This document shows positions 1 through 2,204 of a stretch of 2,204 nucleotides of DNA, piece after piece. The notes beneath the pieces were generated by a model, which saw only the letters and a program-made list of their open reading frames with translations, was not told where the DNA came from and made no database searches. The translations under genes were made by a program, and so were the position numbers. The number at the start of each line of letters is the position of its first letter. Within the stretch, counting starts at the first letter, position 1. Origin of the DNA: Escherichia coli (GTDB lineage Bacteria > Pseudomonadota > Gammaproteobacteria > Enterobacterales > Enterobacteriaceae); assembly GCF_003334335.1 (NCBI RefSeq), contig NZ_QOWQ01000093.1. One strand, given 5' to 3'.

Positions 1-77
1 GCAACCAGCATTAGTGAAAATGAAATACCGACAATCACACACAGGACCTTTGCCGGCGTTATGAGTTTGTCTGACAT
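1..77 (-). CDS. Partial CDS, N-terminus only (ATG at 77-75, continues past window start). Begins MSDKLITPAKVLCVIVGISFSLMLVA: short polar N-terminus then a hydrophobic segment, so a membrane-anchored or secreted protein; candidate Rz-like i-spanin
   Basis: Hand translation of the minus strand. ATG at 77-75 is preceded by AAGGGG (88-83) at a 5-nt spacing, a plausible Shine-Dalgarno. The frame is open to the window edge. Codon first positions are G-rich (gac, gca, gtc, gtg, gtc, ggt, gtt). The spanin assignment is inference from position downstream of an endolysin and N-terminal topology only; only 25 codons are visible. Confidence 0.4.
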   Translation of the reverse strand, partial: MSDKLITPAKVLCVIVGISFSLMLV

Positions 78-79
78 CT

Positions 80-160
80 TTACCCCTTGATAGCAGTAAT
101 TAACTGGGCAACCACCCATAAAAACGGAATCAGCCAGACCAGCAAAAATTTCCAGTCCAT
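80..160 (-). CDS. Micro-ORF, 26 aa, MDWKFLLVWLIPFLWVVAQLITAIKG: a single predicted transmembrane helix; possible small membrane peptide, could be spurious
   Basis: ATG at 160-158 lies 11 nt after the stop of the Rha-like gene (TGA 174-172); stop TAA at 82-80. Strongly hydrophobic and Trp-rich. Weak Shine-Dalgarno (GAAGATGATAAAA upstream), so translation would need coupling. Its 3' end carries the Shine-Dalgarno of the next ORF. A T at codon position 2 throughout could generate this by chance. Confidence 0.2.
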   Translation of the reverse strand: MDWKFLLVWLIPFLWVVAQLITAIKG

Positions 161-171
161 TTTTATCATCT

Positions 172-867
172 TCATGCTGCGGTAGCTCTCCATGCAGCAA
201 GCAGACCAGCAATCCACTCAACACCTTTTGGGGTGAATTTAACCTGCGTAAAAGCATGACCATTGCCCGCCTCGCCCGTTTTCACGCTAAACCGCCCCGC
301 ATCCAGGTGATGCGAGTAAGGCGTCATTTTTCCAGCGAGGCGATACATTATTCCGTTCTCCAACAAAAACAGCCGGAAATCGGTTTCTTTGATACCGAGT
401 AACTTAGCAACTTCCCGGAATCCCATCAGACCAGATGCTTCAACATAGTTATCAACAAATTCAGCCTTCGGCGCTGCTATTGCCAGTTGATTTTCCAGCA
501 CTGCTTTCTGTTCAGCCAGTTTTGCCGCAAATCGCAACGCCTCAGGTAAAGTCCGGGGGATCTGAATACCATGCATCGCTTTGAGTCTTGCCAGCACAGA
601 ACGACGAACGGCCTTTGACTCCCTCATGCCAACGAGCATCATCTGGTCAAAATCCAGATCATAGTATGCCGTTCTTGTCTGGTTATTGTTTAACCGGAAT
701 TTTTTTCCGGTTCCATCAAGCTCTAGCTCATCCTCAATTTTTGCAAGAAACTTACGCGGTTCATGAGGGACTTCTCCGGCTTCTGCCCGGGCTGGATTAA
801 TAATGTTATTCAGAAAATCCAGACTACTCATGGATATTTCATGATCGACAGAAATCATCTCTTTCAT
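172..867 (-). CDS. Phage regulatory protein / antirepressor, Rha-like N-terminal domain plus KilA-C (ANT) C-terminal domain, 231 aa
   Basis: Complete ORF in the supplied track. Shine-Dalgarno AAGGA sits 7 nt upstream of ATG 867-865 (minus strand reads AAAAGGAATCAACC-ATG). The C-terminal half (LPEALRFAAKLAEQ...APKAEFVDNYVEASGLMGFREVAKLLGIKETDFRLFLLENGIMYR...GRFSVKTGEAGNGHAFTQVKFTPKGVEWIAGLL) matches my recollection of the KilA-C/ANT antirepressor domain. The N-terminal half (KFLAKIEDELE...YYDLDFDQMMLVGMRESKAVRRSVLARLKAM) resembles the Rha-family N-terminal domain. Both assignments are from memory, not a search. Confidence 0.85.
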   Translation of the reverse strand: MKEMISVDHEISMSSLDFLNNIINPARAEAGEVPHEPRKFLAKIEDELELDGTGKKFRLNNNQTRTAYYDLDFDQMMLVGMRESKAVRRSVLARLKAMHGIQIPRTLPEALRFAAKLAEQKAVLENQLAIAAPKAEFVDNYVEASGLMGFREVAKLLGIKETDFRLFLLENGIMYRLAGKMTPYSHHLDAGRFSVKTGEAGNGHAFTQVKFTPKGVEWIAGLLAAWRATAA

Positions 868-1013
868 GGTTGATTCCTTTTAGTGATGAACCCTGCGCAC
901 AGGAATAACCAGCCCAAAGAGGGTTAACCAGACCACTGCCGGTTATCCACCAGGGCTCATCCTGAAAGGTTCTTTGGTTTATTTACGCTTGTGCGAAGCG
1001 CAGAAATGACAAA

Positions 1014-1030
1014 GGCACCATTACGGTGCC
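1014..1030 (-). terminator. Small hairpin GGCACC-N5-GGTGCC; on the minus strand it is followed by TTTGTCATTTCT. Weak candidate terminator or RNA stability element downstream of the endolysin
   Basis: Seen directly: 6-bp perfect inverted repeat with a 5-nt loop, 110 nt downstream of the endolysin stop, with a T-rich but interrupted tail on the minus strand. The stem is short, so termination efficiency is doubtful. Confidence 0.25.
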
Positions 1031-1140
1031 TCTGCGTGAAATAATGTTCCTGACTTTATTCACTTACATTTTGCCAGCTCGCAGGATTTCGTGTTATCCG
1101 CCCGCGTTGGCCAACGTCATTTTTCAGCAAAATATTCTGC

Positions 1141-1674
1141 TTATCTGTCGATTCCCCAGCACGCCAGCGCGCTCTCCTGGTCTCGCCGGGATACCTGACC
1201 GTAACAGTTATTTGAGCGAATACGGCAGTCCCTGCCACCGTCCTTAATCCACCAGCGAATCGCTTCGCAGGCACCTTTTCGATCACCAGCATTAATTCGT
1301 CTGTAAAACGTCGACGGGAAACACTTACCGGGACCAATGTTGTACGGACAGAATGACGCGATCCCCGCTTTCTGGGGTTCGGTCAGCGGCACTCTGATGT
1401 TTTTCTCCACCCACGCCAGCGCTTTATCACGCTCAATGGCGTTAACCTGGTCGCATTTTTCCTTCGACAACTTCATGCCGGGGACGACAGGCTTACCATC
1501 CACCCGGGTGGCACCACGGCAGATGGTCCAGATACCTGCACCATCACGGTATGCCGTGGTGTGGTTACCTTCCTTTTCATCCAGAAACTGGTCGAGAATT
1601 TCAGGCGCAGAAGCCCCTGCGGCAATCAGCGCCAGAACGGCAGCCGACAGGCCGTATTTGATTTTTGCGTTCAT
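1141..1674 (-). CDS. SAR endolysin (phage-21 R-type lysozyme, T4-lysozyme-like muramidase), 177 aa
   Basis: Complete ORF. The N-terminus YGLSAAVLALIAAGASA is the Gly/Ala-rich weakly hydrophobic signal-anchor-release segment typical of SAR endolysins. The catalytic motif E-x8-D-x5-T is present at Glu35, Asp44 and Thr50 (EGNHTTAYRDGAGIWT), the same spacing as T4 lysozyme E11/D20/T26 and as I recall for phage 21 R. The whole protein closely resembles, from memory, the lysozymes of E. coli cryptic lambdoid prophages (RrrQ/RrrD type); this is not verified. Confidence 0.95.
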   Translation of the reverse strand: MNAKIKYGLSAAVLALIAAGASAPEILDQFLDEKEGNHTTAYRDGAGIWTICRGATRVDGKPVVPGMKLSKEKCDQVNAIERDKALAWVEKNIRVPLTEPQKAGIASFCPYNIGPGKCFPSTFYRRINAGDRKGACEAIRWWIKDGGRDCRIRSNNCYGQVSRRDQESALACWGIDR

Positions 1675-1785: not shown

Positions 1786-2046
1786 ATGGATTATCCAAAT
1801 CTACCAAAACAAACTTTTGCTGATTTAATCGCACTCAGGCAAGCAGTCGTAGCTCTAATCAACGTGTTGCCGGATGAGGAAAAGGAATTAGTTAAAGCAA
1901 TTCTTAACAGAACTGCCGCCGATTTTTCATCATTCCCACTGACAGATGACCTTGCGGACCTTCCTGAATTAATTGCAGCGTCCGCCATTAAGCTTACTGA
2001 AGAGATTTACTCTCCTCAAAAGCCTTCACAAAATTCCTGCGAGTAA
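1786..2046 (+). CDS. Hypothetical small acidic protein, 86 aa (MDYPNLPKQTFADLIALRQAVVALINVLPDEEKELVKAILNRTAADFSSFPLTDDLADLPELIAASAIKLTEEIYSPQKPSQNSCE); moron-like gene on the strand opposite the lysis genes
   Basis: An internal ATG of the 161-aa + strand ORF in the track. Shine-Dalgarno GAGG at 1777-1780 lies 5 nt before ATG 1786 (AGAGGTGACT-ATG). Codon first positions are G-rich, consistent with real coding. The ORF is AT-rich: I counted about 109 G+C in 261 nt (about 42%), against roughly 50-63% in the endolysin stretches I counted. A strong intrinsic terminator follows 20 nt after the stop. The 5' extension of the track ORF (1561-1785) is antisense to the endolysin and lacks a ribosome-binding site, so the 1786 start is preferred. 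No family could be assigned from memory. Confidence 0.55.
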   Translation: MDYPNLPKQTFADLIALRQAVVALINVLPDEEKELVKAILNRTAADFSSFPLTDDLADLPELIAASAIKLTEEIYSPQKPSQNSCE

Positions 2047-2204
2047 CTTCAATGCAATAATCGTAAAACGCCGCGAACTGCTCATCGCGGCGTTTTTCTT
2101 CAGGCCGCTGAAGATGCTCTTTCAACCGTGAAGCGCAGCTTAGATGCGCCGCGCGATCAAGAATAGTTTCTTTCATTTCATCTGCTGCAAGCACCTCATT
2201 TTTT
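1994..2204 (-). CDS. Partial CDS, C-terminal part only (frame is open to the window end; true start lies beyond 2204). Hydrophilic, highly charged tail ...AADEMKETILDRAAHLSCASRLKEHLQRPEEKRRDEQFAAFYDYCIEVTRRNFVKAFEESKSLQ; function unknown
   Basis: The track start at 2194 is a GTG; codons 2195-2203 continue without a stop (K-N-E), so the gene probably starts outside the window. Codon first positions are strongly G-biased and codon usage is E. coli-like, which supports real coding. Its last 17 codons overlap the 3' end of the + strand ORF (1994-2046) and it reads through the terminator hairpin, which lowers confidence. It is not obviously a holin: no hydrophobic segment is visible. Confidence 0.45.
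   Translation of the reverse strand, partial: KNEVLAADEMKETILDRAAHLSCASRLKEHLQRPEEKRRDEQFAAFYDYCIEVTRRNFVKAFEESKSLQ
2065..2097 (+). terminator. Rho-independent terminator: 12-bp stem (AAAACGCCGCGA / TCGCGGCGTTTT, 8 GC-rich core pairs) with 8-nt loop ACTGCTCA, followed by TTTTTCTT
   Basis: Seen directly, 20 nt downstream of the stop of the + strand ORF. An A-run precedes the stem, so the minus-strand transcript also gets a short U-run (possibly bidirectional). It lies inside the reading frame of the minus-strand partial ORF 1994..2204. Confidence 0.6.

What the first reader, a model, noticed from the sequence alone, without database searches (positions are those of the whole stretch)
172..867. 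Rha/KilA-C antirepressor-type gene embedded in the lysis region
A two-domain regulator of this class sits among the lysis genes, with a strong Shine-Dalgarno of its own. In phage P22 the rha gene is likewise located next to the lysis genes, so the position has precedent, but the function of such proteins in the late operon is poorly understood. The domain assignments are from memory of family hallmarks.
Basis: partly seen in the sequence, partly recalled or inferred. Interest (0 to 1): 0.3.

Follow-up and report, generated by a model that had tools for sequence, protein, structure and literature searches.

The report
Phage Ant-type gene behind structured leader
The finding is a real but already catalogued phage gene for a two-domain "antirepressor-type" protein sitting between the lysis genes, and the less ordinary part is the conserved folded RNA leader in front of it, which many phages (including P22 in front of rha) use ahead of quite different genes.

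Summary
The ORF exists exactly at 172-867, on the minus strand. It encodes 231 aa and lies between endolysin R and the Rz spanin of a lambdoid phage (99.5% identical to Escherichia phage PhiR5_1; annotated "ant" in Stx1 phage phi-O153).

**Domains.** The C-terminal half is a clear KilAC/ANT domain (Pfam E 7.6e-28). The N-terminal domain does not match the Pfam or NCBIfam Rha models. Profile comparisons make it a probable distant Rha relative.

**Closest characterised relative.** The protein aligns with almost all of phage P1 Ant2 (36% identity, E 3e-34). Its function is untested. I infer a late-expressed, protein-binding antirepressor-like regulator.

**Leader.** About 170 nt upstream of the gene form a conserved leader: a terminator-like hairpin, a small GCGC hairpin, and a long hairpin that pairs the Shine-Dalgarno sequence. 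In 131 other phage sites the same leader precedes unrelated genes: Rha (including P22 rha), KilA-N, Bro-N-like, the 933W "ant", and HNH endonucleases. Covariation supports the fold, and Rfam has no match.

**Verdict.** The gene is ordinary and already known. The leader and its cargo slot may be new.

The parts
172..867 (-). ant-type CDS, 231 aa (stop codon 172-174)
   Evidence: ORF list. 1406 homologues. Annotated 'ant' in phi-O153 and 'hypothetical protein' in PhiR5_1.
568..834 (-). N-terminal domain, residues 12-100: fold beta-alpha-alpha-beta-beta-alpha-alpha, a probable divergent Rha-like domain. Residues 33-72 are a mosaic, variable segment.
196..495 (-). KilAC / ANT domain, residues 125-224
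874..881 (-). Shine-Dalgarno AAAAGGAA, 7 nt before the ATG at 865-867
   Evidence: Sequence. Conserved in the leader alignment. Paired in the predicted fold.
876..969 (-). Long irregular hairpin of the leader. Its 5' arm CCUUUCAGGAUGA pairs with UCAUCACUAAAAGG, which includes the SD. It contains a conserved internal loop CUGUGNGNC.
   Evidence: MFE fold z -5.2 for the 286-nt stretch folded (860-1145, the spacer plus a few flanking bases). The same architecture appears in 52 independently folded leaders. 84.6% of cells are paired, against 23-50% when slid. 19 pairs carry double changes, against 8.7+-1.7 in shuffles, 0/500 reaching the observed value.
984..1002 (-). Small GCGC...GCGC hairpin of the leader (degenerate in this window: GCGC/AAGCG)
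   Evidence: Helix 1: 99.6% paired, 3 of 4 pairs with double changes.
1000..1035 (-). Terminator-like hairpin GCAGAGGCACC-GUAAU-GGUGCCUUUGU followed by a U-rich tail
   Evidence: Fold. At the same place other genera have canonical GC stems with a run of 6-8 T and different stem sequences. The simple terminator scan did not call it in this window.
1141..1674 (-). Endolysin R (upstream neighbour)
   Evidence: PHROG 7 endolysin, E 5.6e-64. Annotated lysozyme R.
80..175 (-). 31-aa hydrophobic ORF. Its ATG overlaps the ant stop codon (ATGA at 172-175).
   Evidence: Sequence. Annotated CDS in PhiR5_1. PHROG 6632, E 1.9e-4.
1..77 (-). Start of a 43-aa single-TM ORF (runs off the window). Rz itself lies further downstream, outside the window.
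   Evidence: PhiR5_1 annotation. 70% identical to a 48-aa ORF that follows the unrelated 933W-type ant in Stx2_EH1910.

Best explanation
**What it is (shown).** The ORF is a functional phage gene for a 231-aa, two-module protein.
- An N-terminal alpha/beta domain of about 100 aa, most likely a far-diverged member of the Rha domain superfamily.
- A helical linker.
- A C-terminal KilAC/ANT domain with a MerR-like winged-helix fold.
- The protein is homologous over both modules to the antirepressor Ant2 of phage P1.

**Where it sits (shown).** It occupies a cargo slot of the late operon between endolysin R and Rz. The slot is marked by a conserved leader of about 150-170 nt: a terminator-like hairpin, a GCGC hairpin, and a long hairpin that pairs the Shine-Dalgarno sequence. 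The same leader precedes non-homologous genes elsewhere: Rha including P22 rha, KilA-N, Bro-N-like, the P22_AR_N-type 'ant' of 933W, and HNH endonucleases.

**How it most likely works (inferred).**
- The gene is transcribed only as part of the Q-antiterminated late transcript, which can read through the upstream hairpin.
- Its translation is held down by the SD-occluding hairpin until that structure is opened or cleaved. The trigger is unknown.
- The protein then acts by protein-protein binding, like P1 Ant. It sequesters a repressor-type protein, either the phage's own or that of a co-resident prophage, which locks in or spreads lytic development.
For: **Gene reality and conservation.**

**Domains.** KilAC E 7.6e-28. 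PHROG 63 'anti-repressor Ant' E 1.3e-57 over residues 2-226.

**Homology to P1 Ant.** 36% identity over 220 aligned positions (query residues 22-223), E 3e-34, to P1 Ant1 residues 124-341, which is nearly all of Ant2. The P1 record states that Ant1/Ant2 antagonise C1 by forming a complex.

**Rha-likeness of the N-domain.**

**Late-operon position.** PhiR5_1 and phi-O153. Homologues lie after the lysis genes and before terminase in Yersinia, Enterobacter and Cronobacter prophages.

**Leader.**
- The homology between this window's phage type (phi-O153 and the window itself) and the 933W type breaks exactly at the ATG.
- The leader is conserved across genera.
- 131 pattern hits show 7 cargo classes.
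- Every one of 52 distinct leaders folds on its own into the same hairpin with the SD paired, mean P 0.81.
- A covariance model gives 105 hits.
- Covariation exceeds both controls.
Against: - No functional test exists for this gene. The phi24B ant knock-out (PMC3064807) concerns a different gene, upstream of qut. The 'd_ant' of PMC4426718 is the 933W-type gene, which is not homologous to this one.
- P1 C1 is not related to lambdoid CI repressors, so target specificity cannot be transferred from P1.
- An antirepressor made only after late transcription has begun cannot trigger induction of its own phage.
- The activities actually measured for KilAC domains are host-directed: SOS inhibition for AriS, and filamentation for CreP, with P1 KilA and phi11 Gp07 named as related proteins.
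- Both domains look like winged-helix DNA binders.
- The slot also carries HNH endonucleases, which fits selfish cassettes.
- The terminator-like hairpin is weak in this window.
- The leader structure was derived from these same sequences, and part of the alignment was fitted to it. One search is therefore supportive, not proof.
Confidence: 0.5

Rival explanations
1. Host-directed effector. The KilAC domain acts on a host process (damping RecA/SOS, or blocking cell division) late in infection, as reported for AriS and CreP, rather than on a phage repressor.
For: - The KilAC domain alone inhibits the SOS response in Listeria AriS and two homologues, while the variable N-domain (AntA/B, Bro-N or pRha) regulates the phage (PMC9043618).
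- A KilAC-only protein, CreP, causes filamentation; its authors name P1 KilA and phi11 Gp07 as related KilAC-carrying proteins (preprint 10.1101/2024.01.05.574328).
- This protein has the AriS architecture of a variable N-domain plus KilAC.
Against: - Identity to those KilAC domains is low. In one search the Firmicute phage matches are about 33-42% over roughly 90-115 aa.
- The best full-length relative is P1 Ant, not KilA or AriS.
- Nothing here tests host effects.
- Inhibiting SOS minutes before lysis has no obvious benefit.
Confidence: 0.2
2. Sequence-specific DNA-binding regulator of the Rha/Roi type. One or both winged-helix-like domains bind phage or host DNA and alter transcription or packaging late in infection.
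For: - The KilAC half is 39-42% identical to proteins annotated 'DNA-binding protein Roi'.
- Relatives are named Rha-family transcriptional regulators.
- The variable segment at residues 33-72 covers helix 2 and the beta hairpin, as a specificity determinant would.
Against: - No operator-like repeats were looked for or found near the gene.
- The annotations as DNA-binding proteins are not experimental for this family.
Confidence: 0.15
3. Selfish or neutral cassette. The leader plus its gene is a mobile, moron-like unit that spreads by recombination at the conserved leader. The gene contributes nothing to lysis or regulation of this phage.
For: - The same leader precedes at least 7 unrelated cargo classes, including free-standing HNH endonucleases.
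- It occurs after Rz, R, Q or a tail-region gene.
- Homology breaks exactly at the start codon.
- Some contigs carry two copies.
- Some relatives of this phage share the sequence only up to window position 1055.
Against: - The protein is strongly conserved, with 56 invariant columns down to 59% identity.
- The leader keeps its base pairs through compensatory changes, which recombination alone does not require.
- Homologues hold the same late-operon position in several genera.
Confidence: 0.1

Closest known systems
Phage P1 antirepressor Ant1/Ant2 (immI region)
   Same: Homologous over both modules: 36% identity, E 3e-34, aligning residues 22-223 with Ant1 124-341, which is nearly all of Ant2. 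C-terminal KilAC domain. Translation of the P1 gene is also controlled at the RNA level in its leader.
   Different: - Lacks the first 123 residues of Ant1.
- Lies in a late lysis operon, not in an immunity region.
- No icd coupling and no C4 antisense RNA: Rfam finds none, and the leader model finds nothing in the P1 locus.
- The lambdoid repressors of this phage type are unrelated to P1 C1 (established knowledge).
Rha of phages P22 and phi80 (Pfam Phage_pRha PF09669 + ORF11CD3)
   Same: - Same slot directly after the lysis genes.
- Same conserved leader RNA: P22 39496-39646 scores 130.9 bits.
- The N-domain is probably a remote homologue.
- rha is described as a late-operon gene that is harmful without IHF and is regulated by IHF (PMC4936722).
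   Different: - No significant Pfam or NCBIfam Rha match. BLASTP E 0.14.
- The C-terminal domain is KilAC here, against ORF11CD3 in P22 Rha.
'ant' (d_ant) between R and Rz of 933W / phi24B / Stx2 phages
   Same: Same position, the same 270-nt spacer including the SD (80% identical; alignment), and the same annotation as antirepressor.
   Different: Not homologous: 189 aa, P22_AR_N + ORF11CD3, BLASTP E 0.63. The published 24B_1 small-RNA hypothesis concerns that gene, not this one.
AriS-like dual-function regulators (Listeria phi10403S) and other KilAC proteins (P1 KilA, phi11 Gp07, HK022 Roi, CreP)
   Same: C-terminal KilAC domain behind an exchangeable N-terminal domain. The KilAC half is 39-42% identical to Roi proteins.
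   Different: The N-domain is none of the Pfam AntA/B, Bro-N, KilA-N or pRha domains by threshold. SOS inhibition, killing and filamentation were not tested here.
RBS-sequestering hairpins that limit translation of phage genes (T4 lysozyme e, I-TevI and other T4 late or homing-endonuclease genes; recalled from memory)
   Same: A stable hairpin pairs the SD of a gene that is read through from upstream transcription. HNH endonuclease genes are among the cargos.
   Different: In T4, relief comes from a late promoter inside the hairpin. No promoter was detected here and the trigger is unknown. The hairpin here is much longer (about 95 nt) and has a conserved internal loop.

Membership tests
Pfam ANT / KilAC (PF03374) | Significant match to the family HMM over most of its length | tested here: met
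   E 7.6e-28, model positions 1-106 of 108, residues 125-224. All 120 listed homologues carry PF03374.
Rha family (Pfam Phage_pRha PF09669 / NCBIfam TIGR02681) | Significant match to the family HMM | tested here: not met
   No Pfam hit even at E<=10. No NCBIfam family at E<=0.01. The closest Rha-like homologue, P0139, also has no Pfam hit.
Rha family (superfamily level) | Profile-profile similarity covering the domain, in register with Rha motifs | tested here: inconclusive
   - hhalign gives probability 68-78% and P 2-5e-5 over 82-86 columns against a diverse Rha set. Against the P22-only set it gives 14-34%.
- A P22-Rha HMM hits homologue P0139 at E 1.4e-5, with the SEKINNL..YYxxD..MLV motif in register.
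- 7 of 65 homologues give weak pRha hits.
- The same PHROG 63 segment is shared with true Rha proteins.
P1 Ant1/Ant2 antirepressor | Sequence homology over the Ant2 body | tested here: met
   36% identity, E 3e-34.
P1 Ant1/Ant2 antirepressor | Non-covalent binding and inactivation of the phage repressor | not testable with these tools
   Only the P1 record's statement is available. No binding data exist for this protein.
P1 Ant1/Ant2 antirepressor | immI-type control (icd coupling, C4 antisense RNA) | tested here: not met
   No Rfam family in the window at E<=1. The gene follows endolysin R, not icd.
P22 Ant (P22_AR_N / P22_AR_C) | Sequence similarity to P22 Ant | tested here: not met
   Best BLASTP E 1.7. 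No P22_AR Pfam hit.
AriS-like dual-function regulators | C-terminal KilAC behind an exchangeable N-terminal regulator domain | tested here: met
AriS-like dual-function regulators | KilAC-dependent inhibition of the SOS response | not testable with these tools
   Requires expression in cells (describes the assay).
Any curated RNA family (Rfam 15), for the leader | Covariance-model match | tested here: not met
   0 matches at E<=1 over the whole window, both strands.
Structured cis-regulatory leader (SD-sequestering hairpin) | Conserved base pairs kept through compensatory changes, with the SD inside a helix | tested here: met
   - 84.6% of cells paired, against 23-50% when slid.
- 19 pairs with double changes, against 8.7+-1.7 in shuffles (0/500) and 5-8 when slid.
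- SD paired in all 52 independent folds.
- Caveat: the structure was derived from these same sequences.
Intrinsic terminator (upstream hairpin) | GC-rich stem followed directly by a U run | tested here: inconclusive
   Canonical in the Cronobacter, Yersinia and Enterobacter copies and in several viral contigs. In this window the U run is interrupted (UUUGUCAUUU), and the scan did not call it.

The most novel reading that the evidence does not exclude
The roughly 150-nt element at window 865-1013(-), with the terminator-like hairpin just upstream of it, is an undescribed, widespread cis-regulatory RNA of lambdoid and P22-like phages. It acts as a 'cassette leader' that gates translation of whatever cargo gene sits behind it, by occluding the SD. 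Known cargos are Rha, KilA-N, Bro-N-like, P22_AR_N, KilAC-type Ant and HNH endonucleases. It may be the long-sought site at which rha-type genes are kept silent, for example the IHF-dependent control reported for rha. It would also be the recombination joint through which these domain-shuffled regulators are exchanged.
Probability: 0.45. Interest if true: 0.6.

Novelty: new member of a known kind. Interest (0 to 1): 0.35.

Why it matters
**The gene alone.** It adds little. It belongs to the large KilAC 'antirepressor' family, is already deposited and named 'ant', and has an untested function.

**What the follow-up adds.**
- The 'ant' genes between R and Rz of Shiga-toxin phages are at least two unrelated genes. 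Results and hypotheses for one, such as the proposed 24B_1 small-RNA control of d_ant, cannot be carried over to the other.
- These genes, P22 rha and several other Bro/KilA/Rha-class genes share one conserved, structured leader that hides the ribosome-binding site. This gives a concrete, mutable element for asking how and when late-operon 'antirepressor' genes are expressed, and why Rha-type genes become harmful in IHF mutants.
- Stx prophages co-reside and cross-induce in pathogenic E. coli. A late-made antirepressor could therefore bear on toxin release.

Tried and rejected
- **Rfam.** A scan of the window at E<=1 found nothing.
- **Promoters and terminators.** The sigma-70 and terminator consensus scan found no site on the minus strand near the gene, and totals were no higher than in shuffles.
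- **Solved structures by sequence.** No significant match for the N-domain profile or the full-length profile.
- **PADLOC defence models.** No hit for Ant, DUF1823 or DUF1327.
- **Known Stx-phage small RNAs.**
  - AsxR/AgvB lie 3' of pR'.
  - Pas sRNAs lie between the sialate esterase and the holin.
  - Neither accounts for the R-ant spacer.
- **IHF sites.** The strict consensus WATCAANNNNTTR occurs in 0 of 58 leaders. This gives no support for IHF binding to the leader DNA.
- **Henthorn & Friedman 1995.** A look-up by my guessed PubMed id returned nothing.
- **An early error of mine.** My note equating this gene with phi24B 'd_ant' was wrong and was corrected.
- **A failed negative control.** hhalign of Rha against the KilA-N-like cargo set gave 99.8%. 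This is probably because the 125-aa pieces share the first residues and the start of the common C-terminal domain. I rely only on the control of the N-domain against the KilA-N-like set (1%).
- **RNAalifold.** On the MAFFT and CM alignments it recovered only 20 pairs and missed the outer SD helix. The 35-pair structure tested was projected from single-sequence folds.

Full report
**1. Observation**

The window is a stretch of a lambdoid phage late region read against the direction of transcription.
- It is 99.5% identical over all 2204 bases to Escherichia phage PhiR5_1.
- It is 97% identical over bases 1-1647 to Stx1 phage phi-O153 and several Stx1a phages.
- The ORF named in the finding occupies exactly 172-867 on the minus strand and encodes 231 aa.
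- On that strand the gene order is: [holin S, outside the window], DUF1327 (1994 to beyond 2204), DUF1823 (1786-2046, on the opposite strand), endolysin R (1141-1674), a 273-bp spacer, the ORF, then three very small ORFs and Rz further on.
- phi-O153 annotates the same gene as 'ant, putative antirepressor' between R and Rz.

The ORF is a real gene.
- 1406 database proteins match at E<=1e-3. Most are 229-237 aa, start at the same Met, and come from Escherichia, Salmonella, Plesiomonas, Cronobacter, Pantoea, Providencia, Yersinia and others.
- 56 columns are invariant in an alignment reaching down to 59% identity.

**2. Domains**

*C-terminal half.* Pfam gives one clear domain, ANT/KilAC, at residues 125-224 (E 7.6e-28). 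PHROG 63 'anti-repressor Ant' matches residues 2-226 (E 1.3e-57).

*Standard Rha tests fail.*
- Pfam Phage_pRha gives no match even at E<=10.
- No NCBIfam model matches.
- BLASTP to P22 Rha gives E 0.14, and to P22 Ant E 1.7.

*The N-terminal 100 residues are nevertheless a domain in their own right.*
- A search with residues 1-123 alone finds 345 cluster representatives, nearly always with the match at the N-terminus of proteins of 220-300 aa.
- Only 23 of 65 of these proteins also carry KilAC.
- AlphaFold2 on a 55-sequence alignment gives a confident model (pLDDT 83.5, pTM 0.73) with topology beta-alpha-alpha-beta-beta-alpha-alpha.

*Remote-homology tests favour a diverged Rha-like domain.*
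- 7 of 65 homologues give weak pRha hits.
- An HMM of P22-Rha relatives hits homologue P0139 at E 1.4e-5, with the motif SEKINNL..YYxxD..MLV in register.
- hhalign against a diverse Rha alignment gives probability 68-78% and P 2-5e-5 over 82-86 columns, against 1% for a KilA-N control.
- Bona fide Rha proteins match the same segment of PHROG 63 (positions about 123-240) as this N-domain does.
- I therefore call it 'probably Rha-superfamily, but not a member by the curated models'.

*A mosaic segment.* Residues 33-72 (helix 2 and the beta hairpin) exist in at least three unrelated-looking versions between conserved flanks. One further version is the one that looks most like P22 Rha.

**3. Closest characterised relative**

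- tblastn and BLASTP show 36% identity over 220 aligned positions (query residues 22-223, E 3e-34) to P1 Ant1 residues 124-341. That region is almost the whole of the in-frame product Ant2.
- The P1 record describes Ant1/Ant2 as antagonising the C1 repressor by complex formation.
- The KilAC half alone is 39-42% identical to Roi proteins of HK022-like and Stx phages.

**4. What the literature does and does not say**

- The phi24B antirepressor studied by knock-out lies upstream of qut and resembles P22 Ant (PMC3064807). It is a different gene.
- The 'd_ant' gene downstream of R, proposed as the target of the 24B_1 small RNA, is the 933W-type gene (PMC4426718).
- I fetched that 933W gene. It has 189 aa, carries P22_AR_N + ORF11CD3, and is not homologous to the window's protein.
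- So the R-Rz slot of Stx phages holds at least two unrelated 'ant' genes.
- For KilAC domains the measured activities are SOS inhibition (AriS, PMC9043618) and cell filamentation (CreP). The abstract of the phi11 Gp07 paper reports growth inhibition by its KilA domain (listed, not read further).
- rha of P22 and phi80 is described as a late-operon gene that is harmful to phage growth without IHF, which regulates it (PMC4936722).

**5. The leader (outside the finding's coordinates, but attached to it)**

*It folds and is conserved.*
- The 286-nt stretch 860-1145(-), which is the 273-nt spacer plus a few flanking bases, folds far better than shuffles (z -5.2, 0 of 200).
- It is conserved in more than 260 phage records.
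- Aligned with 933W, the spacer, including the SD AAAAGGAA, stays conserved up to the start codon. After the start codon the two unrelated genes diverge.
- About 170 nt of the spacer are also conserved upstream of KilAC-type homologues in Cronobacter, Yersinia and Enterobacter prophages, where the gene follows the lysis genes and precedes terminase.
- A Providencia homologue in an early operon next to cI/cro lacks the leader.

*It precedes many different genes.*
Counting the loci already held, that makes 131 sites.
- Behind the leader, at a fixed distance from the SD, the sites carry:
  - 41 proteins with Rha, KilA-N-like, Bro-N-like or 'MSSLE'-type N-domains, linked by similar C-terminal halves;
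  - 19 KilA-N proteins of 251 aa;
  - 13 proteins of the P22_AR_N type;
  - 11 proteins of the KilAC type;
  - 9 HNH endonucleases;
  - 4 further Rha proteins;
  - 13 ORFs of 38 aa.
- P22 itself is among them. Its leader is at 39496-39646, directly before rha.
- The annotated GTG start of P22 rha at 39575 lies inside the leader. The ATG at 39644 behind the SD is the likelier start.
- The gene upstream of the leader is Rz in 49 cases, a tail-region gene (PHROG 791) in 25, endolysin in 16 and Q in 7.

*Evidence for the structure.*
- Each of 52 distinct leaders, folded alone, gives the same long irregular hairpin.
- The SD is paired in every one: 2-3 of its 3 core bases, mean pairing probability 0.81. 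The mean z-score is -2.5.
- A covariance model built from 26 sequences finds 105 copies in the held loci. Six loci carry two copies.
- On that alignment, a 35-pair structure projected from the single-sequence folds has 84.6% of cells paired, against 23-50% when partners are slid.
- The same structure has 19 pairs with changes on both sides, against 8.7+-1.7 in shuffles (0/500) and 5-8 when slid.
- Its covariation score is 0.167, against 0.110 in shuffles and at most 0.074 when slid.
- Caveats: the structure comes from these same sequences, part of the alignment was fitted to a sub-structure, and the sequence set was collected with a pattern from the 3' arm.

*Coordinates in the window (minus strand).*

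| Element | Position |
|---|---|
| Terminator-like hairpin | 1000-1035 |
| GCGC hairpin | 984-1002 |
| Long hairpin | 876-969 |
| SD | 874-881 |
| ATG | 865-867 |

- The upstream hairpin is a canonical intrinsic terminator in other genera, with different stems and a T6-8 run. It is weaker in this window.
- Rfam 15 has no match.
- None of the papers I read describes the leader.

**6. Mechanism**

*Shown.* Gene, domains, position, homology to P1 Ant, and the conserved SD-pairing leader shared with unrelated cargos.

*Inferred.* The gene is expressed from the Q-antiterminated late transcript. Translation is limited by the hairpin until an unknown event opens it. The protein acts like P1 Ant, by binding a repressor-type protein, most plausibly to make lytic commitment irreversible or to derepress co-resident prophages. 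I give this 0.5.

*Rivals.*

| Rival | Confidence |
|---|---|
| Host-directed KilAC effector | 0.2 |
| Rha/Roi-type DNA-binding regulator | 0.15 |
| Selfish cassette with no role for the phage | 0.1 |

**7. Verdict**

- The gene is already catalogued and ordinary.
- The shared structured leader and its exchangeable cargo slot is the part worth a specialist's attention.

Noticed in passing
window 868-1035 (- strand); also L006 (P22) 39496-39646, L007 (933W) 2497-2642, and 105 copies listed: A conserved structured leader (terminator-like hairpin, GCGC hairpin, long SD-pairing hairpin) precedes this gene. It also precedes at least 7 unrelated cargo gene classes in other phages. Rfam has no match.
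   Followed up: yes
L006 (P22, NC_002371) 39575-39646: The annotated GTG start of P22 rha (39575) lies inside the conserved leader hairpin. The ATG at 39644, behind the conserved SD, is the likelier start. That would shorten Rha from 201 to 178 aa.
   Followed up: partly
L007 (933W) 1930-2499; L008 930-1499: The 'ant' between R and Rz of 933W and Stx2 phages (the d_ant of the 24B_1 papers) is a different, non-homologous gene (P22_AR_N + ORF11CD3). It sits in the same slot behind the same spacer.
   Followed up: yes
window 652-771 (- strand; residues 33-72 of the protein): Inside the otherwise conserved N-domain, helix 2 and the beta hairpin exist in at least three or four unrelated-looking versions among close homologues. 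This indicates intragenic mosaicism and a possible specificity determinant.
   Followed up: partly
window 1-175 (- strand); L001 5827-6175: Three tightly packed ORFs of 31, 43 and 38 aa, each a single hydrophobic helix, lie between ant and Rz. The first overlaps the ant stop codon as ATGA (172-175). A 70%-identical 48-aa ORF follows the unrelated 933W-type ant in Stx2_EH1910.
   Followed up: partly
window 1055 (boundary); 1055-1140: Several phages (PhiR12 group, Stx2c phages, TL-2011c) share the sequence only down to position 1055, which is the first 86 nt after the R stop codon. A module boundary therefore lies just upstream of the terminator-like hairpin.
   Followed up: no
window 1786-2046 (+) and 1994-2204 (-): An 86-aa DUF1823 gene (PHROG 2572) lies on the opposite strand inside the late operon, between DUF1327 and R. 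It overlaps the 3' end of DUF1327 by 53 bp, in convergent orientation.
   Followed up: no
L047, L066, L071, L026, L033, L049 (two hits each); L049 4615-4755: Some viral contigs carry two copies of the leader, suggesting tandem slots. The second copy in L049 is a divergent GC-rich version (37.8 bits) in which the outer helix is kept through many changes: GGUGAGC/GCUCACC instead of GAUGAGC/GUUCAUC.
   Followed up: no
L011 3501-4205 (Providencia contig): A 72%-identical homologue sits in an early operon, between cro/cII-like genes and the replication genes and next to a CI-type repressor, without the leader. The gene is therefore not tied to the late slot.
   Followed up: partly
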